From a virus, in the UHGV virus genome UHGV-0117658: a stretch of DNA of 15,978 nt. One strand, given 5' to 3'. The notes below the pieces were generated by a model. That model had not been told where the DNA came from. It saw only the letters and a program-made list of their open reading frames with translations, and made no database searches. Shown here in pieces: positions 1-15,928 of this stretch. Made by a program: the position numbers and the translations under genes. Each line of letters starts with the position of its first letter. Position 1 is the stretch's first letter.

Positions 1-995
1 TTGATGGCTTACGTGGAATTTGTGCAGCAATGGTTGCTGTATTCCATCTTTACTGGAGAGCCGGAGGAGAATCAGATATATACTGGTCTCTTGAGTACAT
101 TACACTCAGCAATGTAAAACGCGCCATATATCTAACAGGAGAGTTATCTGTTGGGGTCTTTTTTATGCTGTCTGCTTTTTTATTTTTCAAAAAGGCACTA
201 GCGGACTCCTTCGATGTAAAAAGCTTTGCAATTTCACGATTCATGCGAATTTACCCACCTGTAGTTGTTCTTTTATTTATAATATATATTGCAACATTTA
301 TCATGAATCCGGATAACCATACTCCAGTATCGCAATGGTTTATATCTTCATTACCATTTATATTCAATCCGCCTGGCGCTAACATCAATGGTGTATCGCT
401 CCAGATTGCCACATCTGGTGTGTTCTGGACGTTAGTCTGGGAATTACGCCTATACCTTGCAATTCCATTTTTATATCTGATAATGAAAAACATCAAATAT
501 AAAGAAGCATTTGTTATTTTTTTAATGGGATGTGTTTTATTATTCAAGTATTTTATAAACAATGAACAACACCTGAGTTATATAATGTATTTCCTTGCAG
601 GATTTCTTGTCGCTACAATCAAGAGCAACAAGCGCCCATCAGATATAATCTGCGCTTTATTATTATTCGCAGCCATATATTTTACTCGACATGCTTACAA
701 CACTACAACTCCGCTTTATATGTTTATTGTTTTCTACACAATAAAGTGCGGATGTGATTACTTTGGCTTACTTACATCCCTGCCTGTAACTATGCTGGGA
801 ACCTGCAGTTTCTCCCTTTATTTAGTTCATGGGATAACTCAAACAGTATCTAAACATTATTTATATAGTGCAGGAAACTATGTTTGGCAGATTTGTGCAA
901 TTATTGCGGCAGGTATCATTGCGCCGGTTATGTACAAATATGTCGAAAGTCGCAGCATCATACATAAGCGTCCTCAACTTCAGATTGCAAAGTAG
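1..995 (+). CDS. Acyltransferase family 3 integral membrane protein (putative polysaccharide O-acetyltransferase), 5'-partial; the reading frame is open from the window edge
   Basis: ORF 30..995 has no in-frame stop back to position 3; the upstream translation ...DGLRGICAAMVAVFH matches the N-terminal motif of acyltransferase-3 family enzymes (OafA/Oac type). Product is very hydrophobic with multiple predicted TM segments. Visibly AT-rich relative to the phage structural genes. Confidence 0.7.
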   Translation, partial: DGLRGICAAMVAVFHLYWRAGGESDIYWSLEYITLSNVKRAIYLTGELSVGVFFMLSAFLFFKKALADSFDVKSFAISRFMRIYPPVVVLLFIIYIATFIMNPDNHTPVSQWFISSLPFIFNPPGANINGVSLQIATSGVFWTLVWELRLYLAIPFLYLIMKNIKYKEAFVIFLMGCVLLFKYFINNEQHLSYIMYFLAGFLVATIKSNKRPSDIICALLLFAAIYFTRHAYNTTTPLYMFIVFYTIKCGCDYFGLLTSLPVTMLGTCSFSLYLVHGITQTVSKHYLYSAGNYVWQICAIIAAGIIAPVMYKYVESRSIIHKRPQLQIAK

Positions 996-1002
996 AACAT
1001 TT

Positions 1003-1022
1003 GCGCCCCTGAACAGGGGCGC
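1003..1022. other. GC-rich perfect inverted repeat (gcgcccctg aa caggggcgc) 8 nt after the acyltransferase stop; possible terminator or RNA-stabilising hairpin, but no adjacent U-tract
   Basis: Read directly from sequence: 9-bp arms, 2-nt centre. Confidence 0.3.
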
Positions 1023-1090
1023 TATCCCACCACGCTGTTAAAATTTTGTTTCGTCTTACTTAGCATTTTTAAGTTGCCCATCGGAAAAAC

Positions 1091-1356
1091 GTCACAACCA
1101 TCACGCCCCACAAAAAAAAACCATTAACCATCTGATTATCATGAATAAATGTTGTGATGGTAAAACCATCACAAAACGTAACGTAAACCGTCACACCCTA
1201 TAAATTCAGCGAGTTATAAAACAGAGTTGTGATGTTTTAAGGCCGTCACACTGTGATGCTCTTGTGATGCTCTTGTGATGGTTTTCAATATATGAATTTA
1301 CTTATACATATCATATAGATAAATGATATTTTTTAAATCTGTGATGTTTGTGACGG
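1091..1356. repeat. Array of at least 10 copies of an octamer TGTGAYGG / CCRTCACA in both orientations, embedded in AT-rich DNA; includes a perfect 9-5-9 palindrome (1152..1174) and an 11-bp tandem repeat tgtgatgctct x2.7 (1253..1282); iteron-like
   Basis: Direct reading: gtcacaaccatcacg (1091-1105), ttgtgatggtaaaaccatcacaa (1152-1174), ccgtcacac (1188-1196), ttgtgatg (1227-1234), ccgtcacactgtgatgctcttgtgatgctcttgtgatgg (1243-1282), ctgtgatgtttgtgacgg (1339-1356). Convergent intergenic region with no ORF of 60 aa or more. Confidence 0.6.
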
Positions 1357-1486
1357 TTTTCCGATGCTCCCCCTAAATTTTTGAAAAAATTAGAAGTGGT
1401 CAGAAATCACCCTGATTTGTTGGTGGTTTTGTATATATCTCTGTTAGTGATTTGAGCATTGGTGCAGTACGTTAATGTAGGTATGG

Positions 1487-2419
1487 CTACAGCGGCACCG
1501 CTGAGTAAACAGGCGTCTGATTGTCCGGGTTTCCGTCTGCGTCAAGCAGCTGAACGTCCACGGCATAACGTGGCCGGAATGGATCGGCAAAATTACCACT
1601 TTTCACGGGTTCAGTATGTGCCACCACTCTGGCCATCTTTGGCAGATGAAGCCCGGAAGCCAGTTCCGGATAATGGCTCTCAATCTGTCGTTGTGTCGGT
1701 GTTTTCTGAAGGGGGCTGCCTGTGACGCGGTTCCGGGGTGTCCAGGTGATAGTCATCGTGTCATTTGTAAGATGGACTTTGGTGACCCGTTCACCGTTAA
1801 GCTCAACGCCGGGTCGTATCGTCTGGATCACCGGTAACGTTATGGTATTCCCGCCAGCAGCCCCCTGGCTGAACTCTGCCGGCACTTCGACCGGACGACC
1901 GGTAAACAGTGACTTTTCAGCACCGCCGACGTAAAGCGAACCATCAGGCAACTGGTACCAGATGTAATCCTGGATACTGAATGCCCTGCCCAGGTTGTTC
2001 AGCAACTGATAGCCGGTACCGTTATGGGTGAAATGGGGGATCGGAGTATCGCTGTAAGACACATCGGGTACACTGACACCGATCCCGCTGTTTTCCGTCA
2101 GCCAGCCGGCTACATCCCTTAATGTCGGGTGCTGAAATGAACATGGCCACATCCTTTCAAAAACACCGGCCAGCTCACGAATGAACAGACGCTGATAACC
2201 GTTTTCAGCTGGTTGTGAACGTTCAACATAACCGGTAAACCAGCGCAAAAGCAGGTCGGTATATCCCACATCCAGCCGCACCAGTTTCCCGGTATAATCA
2301 GTGGTTGTCTCTGCGGTAATAAATCCCCGACCGCAACTGTTAAGCTCCAGTACCAGGCTGGCATCAGCCAGATGCACTTCATCCGTTGAAAGGTAAAGAC
2401 GTTTAACTGGTTTCATCAT
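1487..2419 (-). CDS. Hypothetical protein (310 aa), third gene of a coupled three-gene operon; no family recognised
   Basis: Long ORF; start ATGATG overlaps the stop of the upstream gene (TAATG coupling at 2417-2421); codon composition like neighbouring phage genes; no Walker or nuclease motif seen. Confidence 0.6.
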   Translation of the reverse strand: MMKPVKRLYLSTDEVHLADASLVLELNSCGRGFITAETTTDYTGKLVRLDVGYTDLLLRWFTGYVERSQPAENGYQRLFIRELAGVFERMWPCSFQHPTLRDVAGWLTENSGIGVSVPDVSYSDTPIPHFTHNGTGYQLLNNLGRAFSIQDYIWYQLPDGSLYVGGAEKSLFTGRPVEVPAEFSQGAAGGNTITLPVIQTIRPGVELNGERVTKVHLTNDTMTITWTPRNRVTGSPLQKTPTQRQIESHYPELASGLHLPKMARVVAHTEPVKSGNFADPFRPRYAVDVQLLDADGNPDNQTPVYSAVPL

Positions 2420-2964
2420 TAACCCAAAGCATCATTGACGGGCTTCAGCACCTTGCGTTCAAACCACGTCAGTTTTTCTTCATCTTCTCCGGCCGTCTGA
2501 CCACCGGATTGTTCCGCGCTGCCGGTTGTCTGTTTTTTCGCAGTGGTTTTGCCGGTTGATCTGGCTTCCCGCTTTTCCTGTACGCTAATATGTTCCGCCA
2601 GCGTGAAAGTCACCATCCAGGACATTTTCCCGTCCTGCTGTGGTGCATCCAGCATTCCGCTGAATGTGGCCTCACGAAAATTCACCGCTCTGGCAACCTC
2701 ATGCGCAACACGGTATGTCTGTCGTTTCCCGCTACTATCGGTAGCGCTGGCCAGTTCAAAGATACGCTTCAGAATCTCCGGATTTTTGAAAGGAATTTCG
2801 CCACTGATACGCAGCTCCTTTCCTTTTGCCCCCTGCTCAGATTTTGACGTTGCGCTGGTCTGCCCTGACTGGTCTTTATCCTGAAACTGCTGTGAGACTG
2901 TCACGCGCATATTCTTCAGCTGTATGGCCTCGCCGTTAAGCGCCAGTGTCGGGATCGAAGTCAT
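2419..2964 (-). CDS. Hypothetical protein (181 aa), middle gene of the three-gene operon; acidic, low-complexity C-terminal half
   Basis: ORF with ATG at 2964 preceded by aaagggaatgattc (SD-like); overlaps the upstream gene end by 29 nt and is stop/start coupled to the downstream gene. Confidence 0.55.
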   Translation of the reverse strand: MTSIPTLALNGEAIQLKNMRVTVSQQFQDKDQSGQTSATSKSEQGAKGKELRISGEIPFKNPEILKRIFELASATDSSGKRQTYRVAHEVARAVNFREATFSGMLDAPQQDGKMSWMVTFTLAEHISVQEKREARSTGKTTAKKQTTGSAEQSGGQTAGEDEEKLTWFERKVLKPVNDALG

Positions 2965-3661
2965 GAATCATTCCCTTTATTCCATCAAGATTATCGCCAA
3001 CCAGCATCATGGCAGCGGTGTAAACGGCAGACTGCTGCGGAATGTCCTTCACCAGTTCCAGTAACATGGTGTCGGTGTCTCCGCTGGCAGTAAAAACCCA
3101 CGCTCTGGCACTCTTCCCCTGTAAATCGTTCAGGCCGTTGGCCACATCACTGATAAGTTGGTCACGCAGCTGCGTGAACTCGCCCAGCTGTTTTTTCAGC
3201 CCTTCGATATCAAACCCGGCACCCGCCGCCTTTTGTGCCTGGCTGATTGCCGCAGCAGATAAAGCTGCCCTGCTGGTTGGTACAGACAGCGGAATGGACG
3301 CAGGTAACGCAGCGGCGGTTTTCGCAGGGATCTGCATCTTTTCAATAGCCAGCGCTGCGGCGGATTGCGCCAGCCGTTTGACCTGCGTGAATGCCGGGGC
3401 GGGGAAAATCCCGACCAGGTTATTCAGGCTGGCCATAAAGTTTTCCTGTGTCTGTCCGGTGACCATCATAATCACCACGTCCACATTCCCCCCTGTTCCG
3501 GCCAGGCGTTCAGCAAGATAGCGAACAGCATTAACCGGGCTGAGATATGCCCCGTTTGCTGTCTGCTGTCCCAGCCCATAAATCCACGGATGCGCAGGGA
3601 CGATCGAACAGTTCGACGCAGCAACAGAATCCGTGAAGGCCAGACGTGCTTCACGCCACAT
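2936..3661 (-). CDS. Hypothetical protein (241 aa from the internal ATG at 3661), first gene of the three-gene operon
   Basis: The ORF track gives 2936..3697, but the ATG at 3661 is preceded by GGAGGTG at proper spacing, whereas the 3697 start lies deep inside the Tfa-like reading frame. Ala-rich central region; no recognised domain. Confidence 0.55.
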   Translation of the reverse strand: MWREARLAFTDSVAASNCSIVPAHPWIYGLGQQTANGAYLSPVNAVRYLAERLAGTGGNVDVVIMMVTGQTQENFMASLNNLVGIFPAPAFTQVKRLAQSAAALAIEKMQIPAKTAAALPASIPLSVPTSRAALSAAAISQAQKAAGAGFDIEGLKKQLGEFTQLRDQLISDVANGLNDLQGKSARAWVFTASGDTDTMLLELVKDIPQQSAVYTAAMMLVGDNLDGIKGMIHDFDPDTGA

Positions 3662-4031
3662 TTCCAGGCACCTCCGGCCACACAATTTCCGGCGCATCTT
3701 CCGGTTGAATACGGTTCATTAAAACGCGGTATTTTTTCCATGCGGTAAGCAGCAGTGCTTCTTCTTCGGTCGCCATGTCTAAATCTACGGCATCCTGCAA
3801 TGTGGCAATGGCATCACTGGCCTGTTTAAGTAGTCTTTTCTTTTCTGCATCTGCCTCGCTGACTAATGCAGTTCGCATGGCCTCCGCATCATCCACCCAC
3901 GCCTTTCCATTCCATTTTTGCCAGGCATTAGCCGGGGCTGACGTGGTTGTCCCTTCCGGGTAAGCACCAGGCTCGGTGATTACCAGTTCATTACCGTTTG
4001 CGCGGTTGGCATCCAGCGCGGTAACAGCACA
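3651..4031 (-). pseudogene. Tail fibre assembly protein (Tfa/gpG family) C-terminal fragment with no upstream start; remnant of a tail-fibre module
   Basis: My own translation of this frame from 4031 downward gives ...ELVITEPGAYPEG...WQKWNGKAWV...[47 protein letters not shown], which closely parallels the lambda Tfa C-terminal half (QKWNGTAWV...[45 protein letters not shown], recalled from memory). The frame is closed by a stop just upstream of 4031 and lacks the Tfa N-terminal half. Confidence 0.6.
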
Positions 4032-4210
4032 TCACGCTTAAATTCCATTCGCTCAGCGCGGCTTTCAATCGCTGCAGCTGCGGCGACATCTTTCTCCAGC
4101 GCGACAATCTGAATATGCAGGCTGGTTTCCGTGTCCAGAGACTGCTGCTGTCGCAGTAACCGCTCCGCTTCAATTCGTGCGCTGTGGCGCTGTGCCGGTG
4201 ACAGTTGCAT
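3980..4210 (-). pseudogene. M: Terminase small (endonuclease) subunit gpM, N-terminal roughly 70 codons only, truncated by premature stop at the junction with the tfa fragment
   Basis: Sits immediately after the capsid gene N with a strong SD (agggggattta-ATG), as M does in P2. Begins MQLSPAQRH..., resembling the recalled P2 gpM N-terminus (MTSPAQRH...), but is 76 aa instead of about 247 aa; the downstream sequence switches frame into Tfa-like sequence. Confidence 0.5.
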
Positions 4211-4220
4211 TAAATCCCCC

Positions 4221-5249
4221 TTACTCGCCTGCCGGAGGCGCGACAGGTGCCCCGATAGCTACCGCACTTTCATCAAACGCGGCGTACAGTTCCGGATACT
4301 CAACCGCATAACCTTCGTTACGCAGGTATTTGTTTTCGTACTGTTTACGGTCTTCCACAAACTCCGCTTTACGCTGACGCGTGCCGCGCTGGGTGTAGAT
4401 GTGCAGGTTTGGCAGTGTCGTAACAATCATGCGTTTGCCTGGCATAAACGGCGGTACGTAAGCCGTGCGGCCGGCGATGCTGTCAGACAGCAGTTGCGCG
4501 GCGATCTTCTCCGTGGGTTTGTCTGCTTTCTGATACAGACGGAACGACTCCGCCGCGACCAGATCAGCGCCGACAAGAACCACCAGGCGTGGATCATTAC
4601 GGTACTGTGCCGGGATTTTGGCGTTGATAAGGTCGGAGGCCATTGCATCCAGCGACACGTAATCGCCTTTCCCGTCACCGTCAAGCACCACCGCATCAGT
4701 GATGATCTGCTGGCCGTCCTTCCACTCTTTGACGATCTGATGCCAGCCCTTGTTCACATCCTCGCCGTTCGGGTTGGTTTCCGCGTTCGTGGTCTCGGCC
4801 ACTTTGGTACCGTTAAAGCCGATACGCAGCATATCCAGCGCAAACGCCTGATTGGTGAACTCCTGAACACGCTGGAAAAACTCGTTTTCATCGCCGGCGT
4901 TCGCCCAGACAGAAAGCAACTGCCAGGTGAGTGCGGCGCATGAGTCGGTCTCGACCAGACTGTAATCATTACCACTCACGCCCACTTTCTTACGGAAGCG
5001 GCCATCCAGTACACGCCCGGTATACAGGCCAGAGCTGCCAACCGGAACCACCTGCCCCTGCAGCTGATCGACATCGGCAACGGTGATCAGATTCAGGAAA
5101 TCAGACTGCTCCATCAGCGCATTGCGCAGCTGGGTTTCTTTGGGGTCGGTGAGTGCAAACCAGCGTTCGCTGTCGGTCGCCCCGTAGGATTCACGCAGCC
5201 CGGTGTGATACTGAAGCAGAAACTCACGGGCTTTCGCATTTAATTGCAT
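4221..5249 (-). CDS. N: P2-family major capsid protein (gpN-like), 342 aa
   Basis: Size, position between the O-like and M-like genes, SD aaggaaaaagaat-ATG, and resemblance to P2 gpN as I recall it. Confidence 0.85.
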   Translation of the reverse strand: MQLNAKAREFLLQYHTGLRESYGATDSERWFALTDPKETQLRNALMEQSDFLNLITVADVDQLQGQVVPVGSSGLYTGRVLDGRFRKKVGVSGNDYSLVETDSCAALTWQLLSVWANAGDENEFFQRVQEFTNQAFALDMLRIGFNGTKVAETTNAETNPNGEDVNKGWHQIVKEWKDGQQIITDAVVLDGDGKGDYVSLDAMASDLINAKIPAQYRNDPRLVVLVGADLVAAESFRLYQKADKPTEKIAAQLLSDSIAGRTAYVPPFMPGKRMIVTTLPNLHIYTQRGTRQRKAEFVEDRKQYENKYLRNEGYAVEYPELYAAFDESAVAIGAPVAPPAGE

Positions 5250-5283
5250 ATTCTTTTTCCTTAAAGAAAAGTAGTGTTATCCC

Positions 5284-6123
5284 TTACAGGAAATTGAAGC
5301 CTTTTTTGCCCTTGCTGAATTTCTTGTCCGGCAGTTGAGTAACTTTGTTATTCAGCTTGCTGAAGTTTTTCACCAGCTCCGGCAGGTTCCCCACCAGACG
5401 CGCAAAATCTTCGGTGTCCACTACTTCCTTCACGGTGTCCACATCGTCCTGCACATCAGATACCGCTTCTTCCGCCTCACCCAGACGGGTTTCAATAGCA
5501 GATACGCGCTTATCAATGGCATCCAGCGCTTCAGCCAGCGCCTGTAAGGCATCAGACTGTGAAGGTTCCTGCTCCGGGGTCTGCTCCGGTTCTTCGATAC
5601 TGAAAAAATGGCGCCAGCCCTTTTTCGCTGTCTTTGACATTCCCTTTTCCTTTTTAAATTCCCTGACTTCATCAAACGCCAGCGGCTTGTATGGTCCGAT
5701 GCGTTTTCCCCTGGTGCGGCTGAAACGTAACCGTGTGGTGCTTACCCCGGCCGGACTGTCAGTAATGGCCAGTCCCTCAAGATAGGTTTTCCCGGTATTT
5801 CTGAAATTGCCGTCCGGTGTAAACTCCGGTGATAAAAATAAAAGCTGACCGTCTGCATTTGCCTGTAGCAATGAAATCGCCGGACAGAGGCGGGCATATA
5901 AACGAAGAATACCTTCATCATCCCGCTCGGCTTTTACTTCCAGCACCTCCCCCATATTCCCGAAATTACGGGAATGTTCCGGCCATAACAGCGCGGTATA
6001 CAAAGAGGGGTCATATAATTCAGCGGCATCAAGCAACCATTGTTCTTCAATAAATCGCTTATCAACCGTTTCACCCGCAGTGGCGATACAAATCCAGTTT
6101 GTTGCCAGTTGTGAACCTGACAT
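5284..6123 (-). CDS. O: P2-family capsid scaffolding protein (gpO-like), about 279 aa from the ATG at 6123
   Basis: The ORF track starts at 6183, but the in-frame ATG at 6123 has a perfect GGAGG SD and gives a length close to P2 gpO (284 aa). Acidic, coiled-coil-like C-terminal half typical of scaffolds; divergent from P as in P2. Confidence 0.8.
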   Translation of the reverse strand: MSGSQLATNWICIATAGETVDKRFIEEQWLLDAAELYDPSLYTALLWPEHSRNFGNMGEVLEVKAERDDEGILRLYARLCPAISLLQANADGQLLFLSPEFTPDGNFRNTGKTYLEGLAITDSPAGVSTTRLRFSRTRGKRIGPYKPLAFDEVREFKKEKGMSKTAKKGWRHFFSIEEPEQTPEQEPSQSDALQALAEALDAIDKRVSAIETRLGEAEEAVSDVQDDVDTVKEVVDTEDFARLVGNLPELVKNFSKLNNKVTQLPDKKFSKGKKGFNFL

Positions 6124-6266
6124 ATTGCCTCCGTTCATGCTGCGGTTTTCAGTATCGCCAATAAAATTAACCGCCGCATTCACTTCATTTCGGATATAGG
6201 CTATTAGCCGAACACATCAGAAATAAAGCGGGATTTAATATACAAACGCCCGTGCATAATGTGTGC
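6124..6266. promoter_or_regulatory. Divergent intergenic region between O and P; expected location of the divergent late promoters
   Basis: Positional inference from P2 gene organisation; no canonical TGT-N12-ACA dyad found here by eye. Confidence 0.4.
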
Positions 6267-8048
6267 ATGGCTAAATATTCAGAAGAATTAAAAGGCGTTG
6301 CGCGGGCGCTTTATTTAAAACGCTATACCCCGCAGGAAATTGCCAGCGAACTTAATCTGCCTAACAGACGCATTGTCTATTACTGGGCGGAGAAATATTG
6401 CTGGGCGGAATTACTCAGTCATGAATCCACCGAAGATGCATTAAACCGTCGCATTCAGTCACTGACATTACGTGAAGGGAAATCGGAGCTGGAGCTGCGG
6501 GAGCTGGACAGTCTCGTTTCTCACCTGGTGAAACTACGTGCACAGCACAATAAGCATCAGGAAAAGCTGGCAGAAATTAAACACAGTGAAAATGATGCGC
6601 CGGCGCGTCAGTCCGGTGGCGACGAAAAGCCCCGGAAACGTGGCAAGTACAAAAAGAACGACATCAGCGGACTGACACAGGAAGATTTTGACCGGTTCGC
6701 GCTGGAGCACCTTTTCGGTTACCAGAAACACCTTCGCGCTAATCTTCATCAGCAAATCAGGAACATCCTGAAAAGCCGCCAGATTGGTGCAACCTGGTAT
6801 TTCTCAATAGAAGCCTTTGAGAATGCGGTCATGACAGGCGATCCGCAAATCTTCCTGTCCGCATCAAAGGCTCAGGCGGAAGTATTCCGCAGCTATATCG
6901 TCAACATTGCGGAGCAGTATTTCGGCGTGGAGCTGACGGGAAACCCCATCCGCCTCTCCAACGGCGCGGAGATGCGATTCCTGTCCACCAACAAGAACAC
7001 CGCCCAGTCATACAGCGGCCATCTGTACTGCGATAAATATTTCTGGGTACCCAACTTTGCAAAATTAAACGAAGTGGCCAGCGCGATGGCCACACACGAC
7101 AAATGGCGAACCACCTACTTTTCCACCCCCAGCAGCAAAACGCACCAGGCGTACCCGTTCTGGACTGGTGAAGAATGGAAGCGCGGTGACAAAAAACGCG
7201 CGCGCGTACAATTTCCCACGGAGAAGGAGCTGCGCGACGGTGGACGGTTATGTCCTGATGGGCAGTGGCGCTACATCATCACAATGGAAGACGCGAGCGC
7301 AGGCGGGTTTAATCTCGCCAGCATCGGGAAGCTGCGCAACCGCTACAACCGCGACACTTTCAACATGCTGTATATGTGCGTGTTCGTGGACAGCAAGGAC
7401 AGCGTATTTTCGTTCTCTCACGTAGAACGCTGCTGTGTAGATCCGGATATCTGGGAGGATCATGACGAAAACCTGCCCCGGCCGTTCGGCAACCGTGAAG
7501 TGTGGGCGGGTTATGACCCGGCTCGCAGCGGAGACACCTCCACCTTCGTGATCATCGCGCCGCCGATAGTGGCCGGCGAAAAATTTCGGGTACTGCGTGT
7601 ATTCCACTGGCAGGGGATGAACTGGAAGTGGCAGGCGGCACAGATTAAGAAGCTGTTTGGCCAGTACAACATGACCTACATCGGCATTGATATCACTGGA
7701 CTGGGTAGCGGTGTCTTTGAAGACGTTCAGCACTTTGCCATGCGTCAGGCAGTGGCGATCCGCTACGGCGTCGAGACCAAAAATCGTCTGGTGATGAAGA
7801 TGATCGACGTTATCGAAGACGGCCGCGTGGAATGGGATAAGGAGAAGACCGAAATCGCCGCCAGCTTTATGACCATCCGCCGTACGTCCACGGCCAGCGG
7901 CAACGCAATGACTTTCGTCGCCGATCGCACAGCAGAAACAGGACACGCAGACAGTTTCTGGGCTATCGCCCATGCCATTGACAACGAGCCATTAAACTTT
8001 GAAAACCAGCGAAAATCACGCTGGGGTAACTTAGGGAAAGCAGCATGA
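6267..8048 (+). CDS. P: Terminase large (ATPase) subunit, gpP-like, about 593 aa
   Basis: Conserved blocks shared with P2 gpP as recalled (LYLKRYTPQEIA, NILKSRQIGATWYF, SASKAQA.VFRSYI, FLSTN.NTAQS, YFSTPS.KTHQAYPFWTG, GYDP.RSGD). Start taken at the ATG at 6267 rather than the track's GTG at 6252; stop overlaps the Q start (ATGA at 8045-8048). Confidence 0.85.
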   Translation: MAKYSEELKGVARALYLKRYTPQEIASELNLPNRRIVYYWAEKYCWAELLSHESTEDALNRRIQSLTLREGKSELELRELDSLVSHLVKLRAQHNKHQEKLAEIKHSENDAPARQSGGDEKPRKRGKYKKNDISGLTQEDFDRFALEHLFGYQKHLRANLHQQIRNILKSRQIGATWYFSIEAFENAVMTGDPQIFLSASKAQAEVFRSYIVNIAEQYFGVELTGNPIRLSNGAEMRFLSTNKNTAQSYSGHLYCDKYFWVPNFAKLNEVASAMATHDKWRTTYFSTPSSKTHQAYPFWTGEEWKRGDKKRARVQFPTEKELRDGGRLCPDGQWRYIITMEDASAGGFNLASIGKLRNRYNRDTFNMLYMCVFVDSKDSVFSFSHVERCCVDPDIWEDHDENLPRPFGNREVWAGYDPARSGDTSTFVIIAPPIVAGEKFRVLRVFHWQGMNWKWQAAQIKKLFGQYNMTYIGIDITGLGSGVFEDVQHFAMRQAVAIRYGVETKNRLVMKMIDVIEDGRVEWDKEKTEIAASFMTIRRTSTASGNAMTFVADRTAETGHADSFWAIAHAIDNEPLNFENQRKSRWGNLGKAA

Positions 8049-9064
8049 AAAAACGGAAATACAGGGAACGCCGCACCGCCAGCAAGCCGCGCCATATGAG
8101 CCTTATTACCCTGGGTAAACCGGAACCCATTCTGACGACCGGCACAAACTACACAGACGTCTGGTATGACAATGAAGCGGAACACTGGACGCTCCCGATT
8201 GACCGGCTGGCGCTGGCGCAACTGGTGAACCTGAACGCGCAGCACGGCGGTGTGCTGTATGCCCGTCGCAATATGGTGACGGCAAACTATAAAGACGGCG
8301 GACTGACGCATGAACAGCTTGGTGCAGCCGTGTTCGACTGGCTGACCTTCGGTGATGTGGCCATTCTGAAAGTGCGTAACGGCTGGGGGGATGTGGTGGC
8401 ACTGTACCCGCTGCCGGCACTCTATACCCGCCAGCGTAAGACCGGGGAGTTTGTGGTACTGCAGCAGGGTGAACCGATGATTTATCCGCCTGAAGATATT
8501 ATTTTTCTCAGGCAGTACGATCCGCAACAGGCGATTTATGGTCTGCCGGATTATATCAGCGGTATCCATTCTGCCCTGCTTAACGGTGAGGCAACAATTT
8601 TTCGTCGGCGTTACTACCATAACGGCGGACACACAGGTGGCATGATCTACTGTAACGACCCAAATATGACTGATGAAGTGGAAGAAGAAATTATTCAGAA
8701 GCTGGAGCAGTCAAAGGGGATCGGGAACTTCAGCACCATGTTTGTGAACATCCCCAAAGGCGATCCGGACGGCATCAAATTTATCCCGATTGGGGATATC
8801 AGCGCCAAAGATGAGTTTCAGAACATCAAGAGCATCAGCGCCCAGGACGTACTGACCGCGCATCGATTCCCGGCAGGACTGGCGGGGATTATCCCGACGA
8901 ACGGCGCAGTAATGGGAGATGTTGAGAAAGCGTCCAAAACCTACCGCAAAGCAGAAATTTTGCCCATTCAGCGCATGTTTACCGCCGCAGTGGAACAGGA
9001 AAGTGATGTACCGCCCCACCTGTACCTTAATTTCCTGAAAGACAGTGAGCTGGAAGGTGATTAA
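8045..9064 (+). CDS. Q: Portal protein, gpQ-like, 339 aa
   Basis: Translationally coupled to P; size and order (P then Q) match the P2 packaging module; internal motifs (LFRR.YY.NG.H.G, DGIK.IP) resemble P2 gpQ as recalled. Confidence 0.85.
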   Translation: MKKRKYRERRTASKPRHMSLITLGKPEPILTTGTNYTDVWYDNEAEHWTLPIDRLALAQLVNLNAQHGGVLYARRNMVTANYKDGGLTHEQLGAAVFDWLTFGDVAILKVRNGWGDVVALYPLPALYTRQRKTGEFVVLQQGEPMIYPPEDIIFLRQYDPQQAIYGLPDYISGIHSALLNGEATIFRRRYYHNGGHTGGMIYCNDPNMTDEVEEEIIQKLEQSKGIGNFSTMFVNIPKGDPDGIKFIPIGDISAKDEFQNIKSISAQDVLTAHRFPAGLAGIIPTNGAVMGDVEKASKTYRKAEILPIQRMFTAAVEQESDVPPHLYLNFLKDSELEGD

Positions 9065-9117
9065 TGTTCGCAAAAAGGCTAAAATATCATCGTTTTCCAA
9101 CTTCCGGAGCGATGGAT

Positions 9118-9393
9118 ATGCGGGTAATGAAGGTTTACTGTCCGGTATGTGAGGCAAGGGCTGTTATCAAAAAAACAGCCCGAAAACACAAGGAACTGTC
9201 GGATTTATATTGCGCGTGTACCGATGTTGAATGTGGTCACACTTTTGTGATGAATATGACATTCTCACATACCATCAGCCCCAGCGCCAAATCCAGCGAT
9301 GCGTTGATCGCCACTATCTGTAACAGCCTTGATATCCAGCAAAAGCAGCTGATGTTAAAGTTTCTGAGTCAGGACGGCACTGCTGCCGCATAG
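9118..9393 (+). CDS. ogr: Ogr/Delta-family zinc-finger late transcription activator, about 91 aa with a C-terminal extension
   Basis: CPVC-x19-YCACTDVECGHTFV matches the Ogr/Delta signature (C-x2-C ... C-x-C-x4-C-G-H-T-F). Start chosen at the ATG at 9118 with GGAG 9 nt upstream; the track ORF 9064..9393 is in the same frame. Confidence 0.7.
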   Translation: MRVMKVYCPVCEARAVIKKTARKHKELSDLYCACTDVECGHTFVMNMTFSHTISPSAKSSDALIATICNSLDIQQKQLMLKFLSQDGTAAA

Positions 9394-9398
9394 AAAAA

Positions 9399-9426
9399 AG
9401 CACCGCTACCGGTGCTTTTATTTTCT
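9399..9426 (+). terminator. Rho-independent terminator (stem agcaccg/cggtgct, loop ctac, then ttttatttt) immediately after the ogr-like gene; A-run upstream makes it potentially bidirectional
   Basis: Read directly from sequence. Confidence 0.6.
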
Positions 9427-9532
9427 GAGATGTAACAGATTCCCATCTATCAACGTCGATGAATGACCAAGTGATTAATAGTCCCCCCCTCCTAAACATG
9501 ATATTATCTTTCCAAATTTTGGGAGGCATCTT

Positions 9533-10252
9533 ATGTTAATAGTCTCAGTTCTTAAATGTAGTAAAGAGTTTACCCCTAAACACGCCCAATGGCTTCATCG
9601 TCAGTTCAAAGATATTCCATCTATATGTTTAACCGATGCAGATAATATTCCTGGAGTTAACACAACCCCTTTGCTTTATAACTGGCCGGGATGGTGGTCT
9701 AAAATTGAACTATTTAATCCTAATCACCCAGTCCTTGGAGACCAAGATTTACTCTATTTTGACGTAGATGTTGTGGTCACGGGAGATATTCATATTTTCG
9801 AAGGTGCGAAGAAATTTACAATGCTTCGGGAGTTTAACCATGCCTCAAGAGTAAACTCATCAATAATGATGATTCCGGCGTCGATTAAAAAGACGATTTG
9901 GGAACAATTCATTATTGATCCTGAGAAAATTATGCGCAATTGTCAGACTGAAGACAAATGGGGTGATCAGGGATTTCTCGGTAGCATCATAAAACCAGCC
10001 CTATGGCAGGATATCATTCCTGGCTCAATTGTTAGTTATAAATGTGACATCGCCACCCCCTCGATGATTGGCTTCAATGCAAATTTAGCCTCTGAGGCTG
10101 CGACAGGGAAAGTCCCTGATAATGTGGCGGTTGTTTGCTTTCATGGCAGTCCACGCCCCTGGCGTACTGGTTTTGATTGGGTTCCTTCGTTTTCCCTGCG
10201 GGATACTCTGTACGGTAAATTAAAGAACTTTAAAATAAGAATGAAGCAATAA
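9533..10252 (+). CDS. Glycosyltransferase family 8-like (LgtC/RfaJ-type) nucleotide-sugar transferase, 239 aa; AT-rich accessory gene
   Basis: DxD motif in LYFDVDVVV, WGDQGFL and CFHGSPRPW blocks parallel GT8 motifs (YLDIDVLV, QDQDILN, HYCGPAKPW in LgtC, recalled from memory). Strong SD gggagg 6 nt before the ATG. Clearly lower GC than the flanking phage genes. Confidence 0.6.
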   Translation: MLIVSVLKCSKEFTPKHAQWLHRQFKDIPSICLTDADNIPGVNTTPLLYNWPGWWSKIELFNPNHPVLGDQDLLYFDVDVVVTGDIHIFEGAKKFTMLREFNHASRVNSSIMMIPASIKKTIWEQFIIDPEKIMRNCQTEDKWGDQGFLGSIIKPALWQDIIPGSIVSYKCDIATPSMIGFNANLASEAATGKVPDNVAVVCFHGSPRPWRTGFDWVPSFSLRDTLYGKLKNFKIRMKQ

Positions 10253-10320
10253 AGATAACGCCCCTATTGCTTCAATGTTCGCTCCTTCCCCTAACAATAA
10301 AGTTAGGCACTAGTGAACCG

Positions 10321-12978
10321 TTACTTTTCCCGGCCAAATATCCAGCAGCGGAATGTTTCCGGCATCCGTTGCATATCCCCTTTACCACGATTATGGCGCT
10401 CACTTACCGCGCTGCGCGTGGTGCTTTGTCTGATAAACCGGCGCTCATTGCCGTTTTTAAGCAGCTTTTTAATTTCCGTTAACGTGAACGGAATACGCTG
10501 CCGGTGTGCTGCGGCGACCTCTTCCATGTGATTGAAATTAACCGCGATTTCATTTTCATCTGATGAATGATTGATGCCATAAGGTGCCAGTTCATCCAAG
10601 TAATCAAACAGCTCCCAGAACTCCTGCACCAGAGGATGATCCTTTTTAAGTGCCTGACAACGTTCAACGGCCAGCGCGGTGATGGCTTCACGCGTTTTTT
10701 CTATACGTTCAACCGGCACCGGTACAACAAGTGCAAGCGCCTCCAGCAAGCCCACAAGCTGCGCGTGATTCTTTGCAATACGGATATGGCGAATACTGCT
10801 ATTAGACTCCAGCTCATTCCTAGCTCGCTCGTACCCCCTGCCGAACGTCTGCATGATTTCTTTTTCGCGCATGGTGGCCAGTAATGTGAATCCGGATACC
10901 TGGCTAACGGGGAGTTGTTCAAGTCGTTCTGCAGCGTGGCGCGTCTGAATGGACTGGCCGCGCTTGTCGGTATAGATGTGGATGATACGCTCCAGAAACG
11001 CCTTGCTGCCGTCTGTGTCGGCATTTTGCGCTATCACAATACTTCCCCTGAACGGCGGCTCATACGTCTCGTTATTGTTCGATTTGATACCCACGGCGCG
11101 GGAGGCACGACCGTTATACAGTGATTTCAGCTCGTCCCAGTCAAAAGCGCGTTGCTTGGCGTTATCGGTAGTACGGTCGCCCTCAATCAGCACAACCGGC
11201 AGATTACCGACCTGGGCGAAGTTACGGCCACGCGCGGCGGCGGTAGATTTAGATGGGTCAAACCCTTCGTATTCCTCACGGCCGGCGAGCTTCCAGAGAA
11301 ATTCTATCAGCGTGGATTTACCTGTCCCCGGCTCGCCCACGATTTCCAGAAACGGAAATGACTTGTCACGCTCGCGGATTTGTTCGGCAAACAGCGACCC
11401 CAGCCAGAACGCCAGCGCCACATACCCTTTTTCACCAAATGCCGTCCAGATATCGTCTACCCAACCCGTAGTAAACTCGTTCAGCTTCGGATTCAGATCC
11501 AGCGCCGGCGTGAGGCTCAGGCTCTTAACGCTGGCACTGTTGATTTCGAAGTAATCCTCGTCGTTCATCTCATACAGCCGGCCATCGCAAACGGCCACGC
11601 GGTTAAACAACCAGGCGGCATAATCCTTGTTATAGCCGATGAAATTCTGCGTCTTTACCTCTTTGATTTCAGGGAGGCGCATCTGGATGAACTTATCCAG
11701 CTGTTTGGTGCTGCCTGTGTACACCGCCCCTTTGGCGATGTGCAGCAGACGCTTTTTGAACTCGGCGGAGCTGGTGAGCTGATTAGCCGTGAAAGTATCT
11801 TTCACGGCTGGCCGGTTAGGCATACTGACTTTCACGTAATACCAGGACTCGTCCGTAGGTTCAGACCGCTGAAAGTAAAGCGGCGTCAGCCAGCAGTTAG
11901 CTATTTCGGTCACGCCGCCTGACTCTTTAACCGCCCGTTCTTTGGCCTCCCACTCCATCACCACTTCGGTACCGGTATTGGTGATGCGCTCATAGGCTCG
12001 CATATACCTGTCCAGATCCAGCTCAAACCAGTACATGCGGGAGTTATGCTCAAAGTAGAACGAGTGCCACTCGTTATGCTGATGCATGAGCAGCGCTTTC
12101 TCAGTCGGGCTTTTTGCCAGAAGGAGATCGCCATAGTAGCGATAATTTTTAATGTCCGACTTACTGAACCGGTTACGTAACAACAGGTCATTCCAGTCCA
12201 GCGATGCCGATGATTTCACCGGCTGCGCGGCACGAGTTTTCCATCCTGCAGCATCACTACGGGCAGCGAACGCCAGTGTGTGCTTTGTGCCGGCTTTATC
12301 GCCGTCAAACGCCCATACAAGACGTGGACGTGGTTTTTCACCCAGTTCTTTGGCCAGCGTATCCAGTGCGGCCAGCGGATAGTTGTTACTGCTCAGTGTG
12401 GCAACTGCAGGTAACCCTGCCTGGCACAGACTCAGCGCGTTGAAGATTCCCTCAGTGATCCAGATTTCGTTCACTTCCTGCAGGTTGATAAAGGGAGGAA
12501 CCCACCAGTGACCGACATAGCTTCCCCTGATGTTGGCTTTCTGCTTACCGAAGCGCTGCGGCTGGTCAATGATGCGCTCCCATGTTGCACCGCATGACAG
12601 CGAAAATCTGACCGTTGCCGACCCCATGCCATCTTTCACGAATGCACCCTGGGTAAAACAGCCTTTTAATGGCTCAGTCTCCAGCCCTCTGGCCTCGCGC
12701 AGATACGCCTCAGCTACTGCATGGGGGTTATCTTCTGTGGTCTGGTAACGTTTTGACCAGTCTTCAAAGATATCCGGATACAGCTCTTTCACGACAATCT
12801 GATGTGCGCAGTTATTTTCACGGCCACATTTCAGAATCCAGGGCTTTTCTATGCTGGTAAATAATTCGCGCTTACGACAGGCAGGGCAAACGCCCTGCTG
12901 CAAATACTTATCCCGCTCTTTAAATTCAAAGTCCCGAACAAGACGGCGCACAACGTCCTGTTGTATCGTTTCGTTCAT
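10321..12978 (-). CDS. Replicative primase-helicase, P4-alpha-like architecture (N-terminal Cys4 zinc ribbon, TOPRIM primase domain, C-terminal P-loop NTPase), about 885 aa
   Basis: CPACRK...CGRENNCAH zinc ribbon; TOPRIM-like ITEGIFNALSL and FDGDKAG motifs; Walker A GEPGTGKST. The track ORF begins at a TTG (13014); the first ATG (MNETIQQ) at 12978 is used here. Confidence 0.8.
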   Translation of the reverse strand: MNETIQQDVVRRLVRDFEFKERDKYLQQGVCPACRKRELFTSIEKPWILKCGRENNCAHQIVVKELYPDIFEDWSKRYQTTEDNPHAVAEAYLREARGLETEPLKGCFTQGAFVKDGMGSATVRFSLSCGATWERIIDQPQRFGKQKANIRGSYVGHWWVPPFINLQEVNEIWITEGIFNALSLCQAGLPAVATLSSNNYPLAALDTLAKELGEKPRPRLVWAFDGDKAGTKHTLAFAARSDAAGWKTRAAQPVKSSASLDWNDLLLRNRFSKSDIKNYRYYGDLLLAKSPTEKALLMHQHNEWHSFYFEHNSRMYWFELDLDRYMRAYERITNTGTEVVMEWEAKERAVKESGGVTEIANCWLTPLYFQRSEPTDESWYYVKVSMPNRPAVKDTFTANQLTSSAEFKKRLLHIAKGAVYTGSTKQLDKFIQMRLPEIKEVKTQNFIGYNKDYAAWLFNRVAVCDGRLYEMNDEDYFEINSASVKSLSLTPALDLNPKLNEFTTGWVDDIWTAFGEKGYVALAFWLGSLFAEQIRERDKSFPFLEIVGEPGTGKSTLIEFLWKLAGREEYEGFDPSKSTAAARGRNFAQVGNLPVVLIEGDRTTDNAKQRAFDWDELKSLYNGRASRAVGIKSNNNETYEPPFRGSIVIAQNADTDGSKAFLERIIHIYTDKRGQSIQTRHAAERLEQLPVSQVSGFTLLATMREKEIMQTFGRGYERARNELESNSSIRHIRIAKNHAQLVGLLEALALVVPVPVERIEKTREAITALAVERCQALKKDHPLVQEFWELFDYLDELAPYGINHSSDENEIAVNFNHMEEVAAAHRQRIPFTLTEIKKLLKNGNERRFIRQSTTRSAVSERHNRGKGDMQRMPETFRCWIFGREK

Positions 12979-13017
12979 AAATAATCCAGATGTGAAATAA
13001 TGGGTAAAAGGCAAAAA

Positions 13018-13236
13018 CTATATTCTGTACTGCTTGTTATATCGCTCATGTGTCATTAGTTCCCAGCTTCTGCCCTTATCCTTACTCAGTAATCGCCAGC
13101 GATAAGAAACATGAACAGAGAAATAATGTTTTGGCTTAATAACCTGATATACCTTTTTGCCGTTGTAATATTCTGTCAGCACTGAAAATGCCTTGTGAAT
13201 GACACTTTCACTTGCATGAGAGGTCACTGTAAGCAT
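13018..13236 (-). CDS. Possible small basic protein (72 aa), start 2 nt after the exonuclease stop; uncertain
   Basis: ORF only; AT-rich; no SD recognised; occupies the otherwise 260-bp gap between the exonuclease and primase genes. Confidence 0.25.
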   Translation of the reverse strand: MLTVTSHASESVIHKAFSVLTEYYNGKKVYQVIKPKHYFSVHVSYRWRLLSKDKGRSWELMTHERYNKQYRI

Positions 13237-13238
13237 CG

Positions 13239-13808
13239 TTATTTCACACTGGCTATTTTTACAAGATACATCCAGACATAAGAAACAACTTTAGCCTGAT
13301 GAATGGCATCATATAAAGCGTGATGTTTAACACCATCAAACTTAATAATATTACGAACATTCAGCCCAAGTGTTTTTGACAGTTCAACAACCGTTCTTAC
13401 ATCACGGTCATTCCAGTAGTACCAAAGTGGATCGGCAAACCCGCATTTCTCTGATGCATTACGTAAAATAACATTGTCGAACGCTGCACTATTCCCCCAT
13501 ACCTGTACTTTAGATGGGTCAGAATGCTCAGTAATAAAAGCTTCCAGATTAGCTAACGTCAGAGGCAAGTCCAGACAATCGTCATTAAGCAGCTCGCTAC
13601 GCGCTTCGGCATCCTGACGCATCCACCATAATACGGTTTCTGACCCCATAGTGAGACCGTGGCCTACACAGCTGCCCAGGCTGACACGTTGATAAAACTG
13701 TTCACCCATTTCGCCAGTTTCAGGGTCAAAGAATACAGCACCGATAGAAGCAATCGCAGAAGTCGGTTTATTATCCATTGTTTCAAGGTCAATCATTAAA
13801 TGTTTCAT
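13239..13808 (-). CDS. DEDDh-type 3'-5' exonuclease (DnaQ-like fold), 189 aa
   Basis: N-terminal MIDLET motif (Exo I, D-x-E), a central ...FD... block and C-terminal H-x4-D (HHALYDA) are characteristic of the DnaQ/RNase T superfamily; SD aaggaaccgat-ATG. Confidence 0.75.
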   Translation of the reverse strand: MKHLMIDLETMDNKPTSAIASIGAVFFDPETGEMGEQFYQRVSLGSCVGHGLTMGSETVLWWMRQDAEARSELLNDDCLDLPLTLANLEAFITEHSDPSKVQVWGNSAAFDNVILRNASEKCGFADPLWYYWNDRDVRTVVELSKTLGLNVRNIIKFDGVKHHALYDAIHQAKVVSYVWMYLVKIASVK

Positions 13809-14869: not shown

Positions 14870-14935
14870 ACATCTGGTTTTTCTATGCGTTAGCGCAAAA
14901 TTTACATAATGATTCATACATCGGAGGGCTTCGCT

Positions 14936-15928
14936 ATGTCGATTAAGAAGCTTGATGATGGTCGTTTTGAAGTGGACGTTAGACCGCGCGGAACCTCAGG
15001 AAGAAGGATTCGACGCAAATTTGACAGAAAGGCGGAAGCACAGGCATACGAGCGGTATGTACTGACAAACTTTCACGATAAAGAATGGCAGGATAAACCC
15101 GCAGACAGGAGGCTTGTATCCGAGTTAATTTCTTTATGGTGGAGCTACCATGGAAAGAATCACAACTATGGTGACTCATATAAAAAGCGTTTGGAAAAAA
15201 TCAACCGAGAAATGGCGGAACCCAGAGTGTACGAGCTTACCCGCAACTTTCTGATGAAATATCGTGCAGAACGACTTCATAGTGGAGTATCTGCTGGCAC
15301 GGTAAACAGGGATTTCTGTTCCATGTCCAGCATGTTCAGTTTGCTGATAGATATGGAAGAATTTCATCACGAAAACCCGTTTCGCGCCGTGAAGAAGTTA
15401 CGTCTGGAAAACACAGAAATGTCATTTCTGTCCGAAGAAGAGATCCACCATTTGCTGAATGCCCTTACAGGGGATGATCGCAGAGTTGTCGTTCTTTGCC
15501 TGAATACAGGAGCACGATGGGGTGAAGCCAGTAATCTTAAAGCTGAAAACGTGATAAGTAACCGTGTGACCTTTGTTAAGACCAAAACCGGCCCAGCTCG
15601 TACTGTTCCGATATCGAAGGAAATCGCGGACTACATCCTTACACGCAAATCGGGGAAATTGTTCGATACCAACTATGAGCGAGTTCGCGATGTTCTTCGT
15701 AAGATTAAGCCAGACTTGCCGAAAGGTCAGGCACTGCATGTTTTACGCCATACCTTCGCAACACATTTCATGATCAACGGCGGGAATATCATCACGCTAC
15801 AGCGTATTTTGGGTCATACAACAATCGAGCAAACAATGACATATGCTCACTTCGCCCCAGATTATCTGACTGATGCCATACGATTTAACCCTATGCGTGG
15901 GAGTGTCCACATAATGTCCACCGACTAG
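14936..15928 (+). CDS. int: P2-family tyrosine integrase, about 330 aa
   Basis: Begins MSIKKLDDGRFEVDVRP after a GGAGG SD (the track ORF starts 9 codons upstream); catalytic-region blocks CLNTGARWGEA, NRVTFVKTKT, HVLRHTFATHFMINGG, ITLQRILGHT.IEQTM.YAHFAP match P2 Int as recalled. Confidence 0.9.
   Translation: MSIKKLDDGRFEVDVRPRGTSGRRIRRKFDRKAEAQAYERYVLTNFHDKEWQDKPADRRLVSELISLWWSYHGKNHNYGDSYKKRLEKINREMAEPRVYELTRNFLMKYRAERLHSGVSAGTVNRDFCSMSSMFSLLIDMEEFHHENPFRAVKKLRLENTEMSFLSEEEIHHLLNALTGDDRRVVVLCLNTGARWGEASNLKAENVISNRVTFVKTKTGPARTVPISKEIADYILTRKSGKLFDTNYERVRDVLRKIKPDLPKGQALHVLRHTFATHFMINGGNIITLQRILGHTTIEQTMTYAHFAPDYLTDAIRFNPMRGSVHIMSTD

What the first reader, a model, noticed from the sequence alone, without database searches (positions are those of the whole stretch)
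9533..10252. AT-rich GT8-like glycosyltransferase in the variable locus between portal and replication genes
The gene occupies the position where P2 carries old and tin, a recognised hotspot for defence and accessory cargo. It is clearly more AT-rich than its neighbours and carries GT8 motifs. It could glycosylate lipopolysaccharide (receptor masking, serotype conversion) or another substrate; either would be a lysogenic-conversion or defence function.
Basis: partly seen in the sequence, partly recalled or inferred. Interest (0 to 1): 0.55.

Follow-up and report, generated by a model that had tools for sequence, protein, structure and literature searches.

The report
Prophage cargo gene: GT8-like sugar transferase
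An AT-rich accessory gene in the known defence-cargo slot of a P2-family E. coli prophage encodes a small, uncharacterised sugar-adding enzyme related to phage P1's PmgQ; it most likely remodels the host cell surface, but its target has not been shown.

Summary
Window 9533-10252 (+) is an intact 239-aa ORF with 41% GC, against 52-53% in the flanking portal and primase genes. The protein is a confident GT-A fold whose best structural and profile matches are all GT8 enzymes (glycogenin, Skp1 alpha-galactosyltransferase, LgtC, GlyE). The GT8 catalytic motifs are invariant: K57, D77xD79, G144-D145-Q146, H204-G-x-P-R-P-W. It does not reach Pfam's GT8 threshold. It belongs to phrog_1962, the family of phage P1 PmgQ (40% identity), which has no demonstrated function.

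The ogr-primase slot varies among more than 30 related prophages, from empty (26 bp) to 2.1 kb, and one relative carries an Old homologue there. It therefore corresponds to the P2 old/tin hotspot, and the gene is non-core cargo.

The acceptor substrate is unknown. Many family members sit inside phage head modules beside, or fused to, an MptE/Maf-like transferase. This gene's subfamily stands alone, carries a basic C-terminal helix, and lies at prophage ends or in plain chromosome, once next to WaaZ-like and Ugd genes. I favour glycosylation of a membrane-linked envelope glycan (LPS) that causes receptor masking, at moderate confidence. No defence-system model matches.

Verdict: an ordinary but uncharacterised new member of a known kind.

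The parts
9064..9393 (+). Ogr/Delta zinc-finger late activator; left boundary of the cargo slot
   Evidence: Pfam PF04606 E 1.1e-15. Its start overlaps the portal stop codon.
9396..9419 (+). Intrinsic-terminator-like hairpin plus T-run after ogr; separates the cargo gene from the portal-ogr transcript
   Evidence: 10-bp stem with 5 GC pairs, followed by ATTTTCTG. This is a consensus match only.
9499..9507 (+). Candidate extended -10 promoter element (TGaTATTAT). A C7 tract lies just upstream at 9483-9489.
   Evidence: Read by eye. The consensus scan did not report it because no good -35 exists. Inference only.
9521..9526 (+). Shine-Dalgarno sequence GGGAGG
   Evidence: Sequence; 6 nt upstream of the ATG at 9533.
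9533..10252 (+). CDS for a 239-aa GT8-like GT-A glycosyltransferase of the PmgQ / phrog_1962 family. Residues ~1-215 form the catalytic domain. Residues 222-238 form a basic C-terminal helix.
10242..10274 (-). Long hairpin that overlaps the stop codon and lies between the convergent GT and primase genes; terminator-like
   Evidence: 14 pairs, T-rich tail on the minus strand.
10321..13014 (-). Toprim/DUF5906 replication primase; right boundary of the cargo slot
   Evidence: phrog_1139 E 0; Pfam Toprim_3 and Toprim_2
9394..10320. The variable cargo slot. It spans about 930 bp here (933 bp as delimited in the comparison) and 26-2105 bp in related prophages.

Best explanation
The gene is horizontally acquired accessory cargo in the cos-proximal portal-replication hotspot of an Evevirus-like (P2-family) E. 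coli prophage. It encodes a soluble or peripheral cytoplasmic glycosyltransferase of the GT8 clan that is metal- and DxD-dependent, and by homology it transfers a sugar from a UDP-sugar with retention of configuration. It appears to be its own transcription unit, with a terminator upstream, a possible extended -10 element, a strong ribosome-binding site and a hairpin downstream. It could therefore be expressed in the lysogen. Its subfamily has gained a strongly basic C-terminal helix, which I infer tethers it to the inner membrane. There it would add an alpha-linked hexose to a lipid-linked envelope glycan, most likely LPS core or an O-unit. The result would be an altered phage receptor or serotype of the lysogen, that is, superinfection exclusion or lysogenic conversion. 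Shown: the ORF, its composition, its fold, its catalytic motifs, its cargo status and its hotspot identity. Inferred: expression in lysogeny, membrane tethering, the acceptor and the phenotype.

For: Cargo and hotspot: GC is 41% against 52-53% in the neighbours. The slot is hypervariable, and a relative holds an Old homologue in the same orientation. The P2 hotspot is defined between gpA and gpQ (PMC9122126).

Against: There is no direct evidence for the acceptor. Structural similarity to the protein-glycosylating GT8s (Gat1, glycogenin, GlyE) is as strong as to LgtC. Many relatives, including P1 pmgQ, are lytic-cycle genes inside morphogenesis modules. The Halomonas WaaZ/Ugd neighbourhood is a single case. 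The amphipathic moment of this protein's tail is modest (0.21). The promoter was read by eye and was not found by the consensus scan. No LPS-type Pfam or NCBIfam model matches. The prophage copy in the window is defective, so the benefit to a phage is moot there.
Confidence: 0.42

Rival explanations
1. The enzyme glycosylates a protein during lytic growth, as the wider PmgQ family may do. The target would be a virion protein or another phage or host protein. In this reading the gene keeps the ancestral 'morphogenetic' role and its slot location is incidental.
Against: The window has no MptE-like partner. A terminator separates the gene from the late portal-ogr operon. Relatives with near-identical structural genes lack the gene. 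Subfamily members occur in chromosomes without any phage. P1 pmgQ is dispensable for plaque formation (PMC10695390).
Confidence: 0.2
2. The gene is a single-gene anti-phage defence that does not act through LPS. The enzyme might glycosylate a component of an invading phage or a host factor the phage needs, or it might drain a UDP-sugar pool (for example UDP-glucose, which T-even phages need to glucosylate their DNA).
For: The gene occupies the slot that holds Old in a relative and old/tin in P2. It is an AT-rich, stand-alone unit. It is retained in decayed prophages.
Confidence: 0.12
3. The enzyme glycosylates DNA, adding or extending a sugar on modified bases of the phage genome.
For: Some phage GT8-like (WaaJ/WaaO-like) enzymes add secondary sugars to glycosylated 5hmC DNA (bioRxiv 10.1101/2023.12.21.572611).
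Against: The window encodes no hydroxymethylase, TET/5mYOX enzyme, thymidylate-synthase homologue or cytosine methyltransferase. From my own knowledge, P1 and P2-type phages package canonical DNA. Homologues exist in phage-free chromosomal contexts.
Confidence: 0.03
4. The gene is a functionless passenger or is decaying, and has no current role.
For: The prophage copy in the window is defective. Only 18 of 5426 complete E. coli genomes carry the element, and those copies are nearly clonal.
Against: The ORF is intact and every catalytic residue is conserved. dN is far below a saturated dS against homologues. The gene survives in four independently rearranged copies of the prophage.
Confidence: 0.06

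Closest known systems
Phage P1 PmgQ / P7 HdmD (phrog_1962)
   Same: Same protein family: 40% identity over 92% of the query, and phrog_1962 E 5.8e-81. The DxD, GDQ and HGxPRPW motifs are the same.
   Different: P1 pmgQ lies in a C1-repressed lytic operon with two MptE-like genes (pmgO, pmgP) and a phosphatase gene, and it lacks the basic C-terminal helix. The window gene stands alone in a cargo slot. PmgQ has no demonstrated function and is dispensable.
GT8 retaining glycosyltransferases (glycogenin, Gat1/Skp1 alpha-GalT, LgtC, GlyE, WaaJ/WaaO/WaaR type)
   Different: Identity is only 13-16%. It scores below Pfam PF01501's threshold. At 239 aa it is shorter than the LPS core GT8s, which are about 330 aa (my own knowledge). 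The donor, the acceptor and the stereochemistry are untested.
P2 old / tin hotspot cargo (Rousset et al. 2022)
   Same: Same topological slot between the portal and the replication gene. The slot is hypervariable and low in GC, and a relative holds an Old homologue in the identical slot.
   Different: The host phage is Evevirus-like, with a Toprim primase rather than gpA and with ogr placed after the portal gene. The cargo protein matches no defence model.
Serotype-converting prophage genes (gtrABC, oac)
   Same: An AT-rich moron. In homologues it lies beside the tail-fibre genes or at the prophage end. The prophage also carries an Oac-like acyltransferase.
   Different: The Gtr system is a three-protein, periplasmic-face, bactoprenol-linked pathway (my own knowledge). 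Here there is a single cytoplasmic GT-A enzyme that would have to act before the glycan is exported.
Virion-glycosylating phage and viral GTs (mycobacteriophage GTs; PBCV-1 A64R)
   Different: The window gene lies outside the structural operons and is absent from relatives with the same virion genes.

Membership tests
CAZy GT8 / Pfam PF01501 Glyco_transf_8 | GT-A (single Rossmann-like) nucleotide-sugar transferase fold | tested here: met
CAZy GT8 / Pfam PF01501 Glyco_transf_8 | DxD metal- and nucleotide-binding motif | tested here: met
   D77 and D79 are invariant in 44 homologues. They align with the DxD of Gat1 and glycogenin.
CAZy GT8 / Pfam PF01501 Glyco_transf_8 | C-terminal HxxGxxKPW motif (third metal ligand His, phosphate-binding Lys/Arg) | tested here: met
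   F203-H204-G205-S-P207-R208-P209-W210. H, G and P are invariant. The motif aligns with glycogenin 'FLGQTKPW'.
CAZy GT8 / Pfam PF01501 Glyco_transf_8 | GDQG(L/F)LN catalytic-centre motif and UDP-binding Lys in the 'TKL' motif | tested here: met
   G144 and D145 are invariant and Q146 is at least 90% conserved. K57 is invariant within WSK and aligns with Gat1 'YTKL'.
CAZy GT8 / Pfam PF01501 Glyco_transf_8 | Scores above the curated Pfam gathering threshold | tested here: not met
   The window protein gives no hit at E up to 0.1. Only 10 of 44 homologues give sub-threshold hits, best E 0.0059.
CAZy GT8 / Pfam PF01501 Glyco_transf_8 | Retaining (alpha) transfer from a UDP-hexose | not testable with these tools
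   Requires an enzyme assay and NMR of the product.
P1 PmgQ family (phrog_1962) | Full-length HMM match | tested here: met
   E 5.8e-81, residues 1-223 against profile positions 1-224 of 230. tblastn to P1 pmgQ gives 40% identity over 92% of the query.
P1 PmgQ family (phrog_1962) | Adjacent or fused MptE/Maf-like partner gene (frequent in the family, not universal) | tested here: not met
   tblastn of seven partner sequences against the window finds nothing with E below 0.4.
P2-type portal-replication defence hotspot cargo | Lies between the portal and replication genes, in a slot whose content varies among related phages | tested here: met
   the hotspot definition comes from PMC9122126. An Old homologue occupies the same slot in L111.
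P2-type portal-replication defence hotspot cargo | Matches a known defence-system protein model | tested here: not met
   PADLOC finds 0 families at E up to 1.
P2-type portal-replication defence hotspot cargo | Confers resistance to phage infection | not testable with these tools
   Requires plaque and adsorption assays.
Gtr-type serotype-conversion module | gtrA flippase, gtrB bactoprenol glucosyltransferase and a serotype-specific membrane GT | tested here: not met
   The slot holds a single ORF. The protein is a compact globular GT-A domain followed only by the C-terminal helix. No Gtr-type Pfam or PHROG hits occur in the window ORFs that were scanned.

The most novel reading that the evidence does not exclude
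The stand-alone, basic-tailed branch of the PmgQ family could be a new single-gene prophage immunity function carried in the Old/Tin hotspot. It would be either a cytoplasmic-face LPS-core glycosyltransferase that masks the receptor without a Gtr system, or an enzyme that glycosylates an incoming phage component or a host factor. The ancestral branch, which pairs with MptE/Maf-like transferases, would then be a widespread and unrecognised virion-glycosylation module of Gram-negative phages, P1 included.
Probability: 0.15. Interest if true: 0.7.

Novelty: new member of a known kind. Interest (0 to 1): 0.42.

Why it matters
The gene gives a concrete, testable function candidate for a protein family that is large and has no curated Pfam/NCBIfam model: about 1,360 clusters at 50% identity with E up to 1e-30. 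The family includes pmgQ of the classic phage P1, which has been called only 'putative morphogenetic function' for two decades. If the stand-alone form remodels LPS, it would be a one-gene route to receptor masking in the P2-family defence hotspot. That would bear on phage host range, serotyping and phage therapy in pig-associated E. coli. If instead the family glycosylates virions together with its MptE-like partner, it would extend virion glycosylation from actinobacteriophages to Gram-negative phages. As it stands the finding is a sound annotation with an unproven role, not a surprise.

Tried and rejected
1. Curated models. Pfam, NCBIfam and PADLOC scans and a single-sequence PDB search of the protein gave no hits. 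Only a family profile and fold comparison exposed the GT8 relationship.
2. The afdb50 fold library was unavailable.
3. Literature. Searches for pmgQ, pmgO, pmgP, hdmD, phrog_1962, WP_000909748, 'MptE-like' plus phage, and GT8 plus prophage found no functional study. They yielded only P1 essentiality tables and expression data. The supplementary tables of the P2 hotspot paper do not mention the gene or any glycosyltransferase.
4. DNA hypermodification was considered because GT8-like enzymes extend DNA glycans in some phages. I rejected it because the window has no precursor-base pathway.
5. A phase-variable promoter (the C7 tract at 9483-9489) was considered. All sequenced copies have an identical 933-bp slot, so nothing suggests length variation.
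6. An Ogr-type late promoter (TGT-N12-ACA) was looked for by eye upstream of the gene and not found.
7. A link between the MptE-like partner family and WaaZ was tested by profile-profile comparison. The result was weak (hhalign probability 61%), so I treat it as a lead only.
8. dN/dS could not be given as a number because synonymous sites are saturated for most pairs.
9. A megablast search of complete E. coli genomes found only near-identical copies, so it gave no within-species comparison of the slot. Relatives came from the IMG/VR and GTDB scans instead.

Full report
**1. The observation**

Window 9533-10252 (+) is a clean 239-aa ORF. It has a GGGAGG ribosome-binding site 6 nt before the ATG. 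Its N-terminus lines up with those of its homologues.

Its GC content is 41.0% and its GC3 is 38%. The flanking portal, terminase and primase genes have 52-53% GC and 59-63% GC3. The 'AT-rich relative to its neighbours' claim is therefore correct.

Other low-GC patches in the window are the acyltransferase (36.5%), a ParE-like ORF (38.8%) and the early region.

**2. The setting**

The window is a P2-family (Peduoviridae) prophage. The nearest named phage is Escherichia phage ESSI2_ev239 (genus Evevirus), at 83% nucleotide identity.

The gene order is as follows:
- acyltransferase 30-995
- baseplate fragment 1487-2419
- two genes of unknown function
- a small-terminase fragment 3980-4210
- capsid 4221-5249
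- scaffold 5284-6183
- large terminase 6252-8048
- portal 8045-9064
- Ogr/Delta 9064-9393
- the target gene 9533-10252
- Toprim primase 10321-13014 (minus strand)
- ParE-like ORF 13018-13236
- exonuclease 13239-13808
- Cox, C repressor and integrase 14909-15928

In E. coli the element sits between raiA and pheL. The copy in the window is defective. It is collinear with intact copies only from about position 3998 onward, and it keeps only fragments of the baseplate and small-terminase genes.

**3. What the protein is**

Curated models are silent. Pfam, NCBIfam and PADLOC models and a single-sequence search of PDB sequences give nothing.

PHROGs places the protein in phrog_1962 ('glycosyltransferase', moron category) at E 5.8e-81. 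The large protein database returns 602 homologues, none with a precomputed Pfam domain except one fusion.

In an alignment of 44 diverse members the following are invariant or nearly so:
- W54 and K57
- D77 and D79
- G144, D145 and Q146
- H204, G205, P207, P209 and W210

AlphaFold2 run on that alignment gives a very confident model, with pLDDT 96.4 and pTM 0.92.

A profile built from the family hits only GT8 chains in PDB sequences: Gat1 at 6e-8, glycogenin at about 2e-6 and GlyE at 1e-3. The DxD, GDQG(F/L)L and F(H/L)GxxKPW motifs and the UDP-binding lysine are in register.

Pfam's GT8 model is touched only below threshold, by 10 of 44 members.

Conclusion: this is a divergent, compact member of the GT8 clan with an intact catalytic apparatus.

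Against the nearest homologues for which I hold DNA, dN is 0.12-0.18 while synonymous sites are saturated. The gene is therefore under purifying selection.

**4. The locus**

I collected 36 loci encoding primases 86-100% identical to the window's, from GTDB genomes and IMG/VR. I then measured the interval between ogr and the primase in each.

The interval ranges from 26-52 bp (empty) to 2105 bp. It holds many unrelated cargos, nearly all low in GC:
- single ORFs of 55-142 aa
- an 83 aa plus 123 aa pair, as in ESSI2_ev239
- proteins of about 330 aa and 282 aa
- a 622-aa protein

The glycosyltransferase occurs only in copies of the very same prophage (primase at least 99.7% identical).

The 622-aa cargo is an Old homologue (PADLOC Old E 1.7e-215; Pfam OLD-like TOPRIM). 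It lies in the same convergent orientation as the glycosyltransferase gene.

Rousset et al. 2022 define the P2 defence hotspot as the cos-proximal region between gpA and gpQ, which holds old and tin. The second refutation condition, 'a conserved core component', is not met either.

Only 18 of 5426 complete E. coli genomes carry the region. All copies are at least 99.9% identical, and most come from pig isolates. The exact protein is nonetheless recorded in more than a thousand assembly blocks.

**5. The family context points two ways**

(a) The lytic, morphogenetic side.

The protein is 40% identical to P1 PmgQ and P7 HdmD. In P1, pmgQ closes a C1-operator-controlled operon, pmgN-pmgO-pmgP-ppp-pmgQ. 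It is dispensable for plaque formation (PMC10695390).

PmgO and PmgP belong to a family that matches Pfam MptE-like near or below threshold in 14 of 15 members. That family's best PDB profile hit is the Cst-II sialyltransferase, at E 0.002.

I analysed 53 diverse IMG/VR loci. In them the GT8-like gene typically lies on the same strand among portal, capsid, connector and tail-completion genes. At least 19 loci have an MptE-like gene within 5 kb.

Fusions of the two domains occur in both orders. P0238 scores 72.5 bits on MptE-like, which is above that model's threshold, and fusions to methyltransferases also occur.

In a Halomonas HK97-like prophage the gene sits between the capsid and connector genes, beside an FkbM-type methyltransferase gene.

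This pattern suggests a virion or protein glycosylation module. No publication on such a module was found.

(b) The stand-alone side.

The window has no MptE-like gene.

Members at least 47% identical to the window protein stand alone. They lie in one of three settings:
- as the last gene after the tail-fibre and assembly genes, at the prophage-host junction
- between int and the tail-fibre genes, as in phage Chlobot
- in phage-free chromosome, as in Vitreoscilla and Shimwellia

These members carry a C-terminal extension of about 25 residues. AF2 models it as a helix (residues 222-238), and its net charge is +5 to +11.

A Halomonas chromosomal homologue with a similar basic tail lies next to a WaaZ_KDO_III-like gene and a UDP-glucose dehydrogenase gene.

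Members in structural modules lack the tail.

**6. Mechanism**

What is shown: the gene encodes a DxD-type GT8-clan enzyme, and it is mobile cargo in a defence or accessory hotspot.

What is inferred:
- It is an independent transcription unit. A terminator-like hairpin lies at 9396-9419 after ogr, and a long hairpin lies at 10242-10274 over the stop codon. An extended -10-like TGaTATTAT at 9499-9507 was read by eye.
- The basic helix tethers the enzyme to the inner membrane, as is proposed for LgtC (my own knowledge).
- The acceptor is a lipid-linked envelope glycan.

The outcome would be altered LPS, and hence receptor masking or seroconversion. This fits the tail-fibre-adjacent and prophage-end positions of the homologues. 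It also fits the O-antigen-acetylase-like gene in the same prophage.

I put this model at about 0.4. The rivals are:
- Lytic-phase protein or virion glycosylation: about 0.2
- A defence that does not act through LPS: about 0.12
- A non-functional remnant: about 0.06
- DNA glycosylation: about 0.03. Some phage GT8-like enzymes do this, but no modified-base pathway is present here.

**7. Comparison with what is known, and novelty**

By fold and motifs the protein is a GT8-clan enzyme, and it is a member of the PmgQ/phrog_1962 family. It fails the Pfam GT8 threshold. It matches no defence model, and it is not a Gtr-type module.

The family is large: 1,358 clusters at 50% identity with E up to 1e-30, and 3,731 with E up to 1e-10. 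No functional study of it was found.

The gene is best filed as a new member of a known kind, a prophage accessory glycosyltransferase. Interest is moderate.

Noticed in passing
window 1490-4210 (junction near 3998): The prophage copy in the window is defective. It keeps only a 310-aa fragment of a 544-position baseplate family and a 76-aa fragment of the small terminase. Collinearity with intact copies (strain NT1F10, L090; and L005) starts at about 3998. Other strains carry different deletions or an IS insertion (L002, L003, L004), yet all keep the glycosyltransferase gene unchanged.
   Followed up: partly
window 30-995 (+): An Acyl_transf_3 / O-antigen-acetylase-like gene (Pfam E 2.3e-23; phrog_3333 'O-acetyltransferase') with 36.5% GC lies at the raiA-side end of the prophage. 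It is a second candidate envelope-modifying cargo gene. ESSI2_ev239 also carries one.
   Followed up: partly
window 13018-13236 (-): A 72-aa ParE-like toxin-domain ORF (PF24732 E 8.4e-17; 38.8% GC) is wedged between the primase and exonuclease genes, with no obvious antitoxin partner. It is called in some records and not in others, although the DNA is present in all, including ESSI2_ev239.
   Followed up: partly
L009 (phage P1) 3144-5702; L008 (phiNP) 4466-6303; L019 5989-7254; P0238: The PmgQ-type GT8-like gene recurrently neighbours, or is fused to, an MptE/Maf/Cst-II-like transferase. P1 pmgO and pmgP are two such paralogues. In many uncultured phages the pair lies inside the head and connector module. 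This may be an unrecognised virion-glycosylation module of Gram-negative phages.
   Followed up: partly
L134 7001-10087 (Halomonas binhaiensis chromosome): A chromosomal family member with a basic C-terminal tail lies directly upstream of a WaaZ_KDO_III-like gene and beside a UDP-glucose dehydrogenase gene. This is the only direct neighbourhood link to LPS core biosynthesis that I found.
   Followed up: no
L111 5649-7517; L109 5697-6686; L098 8799-9806; L118 5897-6745; L096 8699-9344; L105 5593-5910; L126 6303-6731: Alternative cargos occupy the same ogr-primase slot in related prophages. They include an Old homologue, a family of about 330 aa with only weak LmuB-like similarity, a 282-aa relative of that family, a DUF2528 protein plus an 83-aa ORF, a 105-aa protein with a ClpX-type zinc finger, and a DUF6232 protein. 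Most are uncharacterised candidates for defence functions.
   Followed up: partly
window 9483-9489: A C7 homopolymer tract lies in the putative promoter region of the glycosyltransferase gene. No length variation is seen among the sequenced copies, all of which have a 933-bp slot.
   Followed up: yes
window 996-1486: About 490 bp of low-GC sequence (about 37-40% GC), with no ORF of 50 aa or more that I examined, lies between the acyltransferase gene and the baseplate fragment. It is shared with other decayed copies (L002, L004).
   Followed up: no
L093 8355-9497: In one E. albertii-type prophage, fragments of a GT4 (Glycos_transf_1) gene lie just downstream of the homologous GT8-like gene, at the prophage-host junction.
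   Followed up: no
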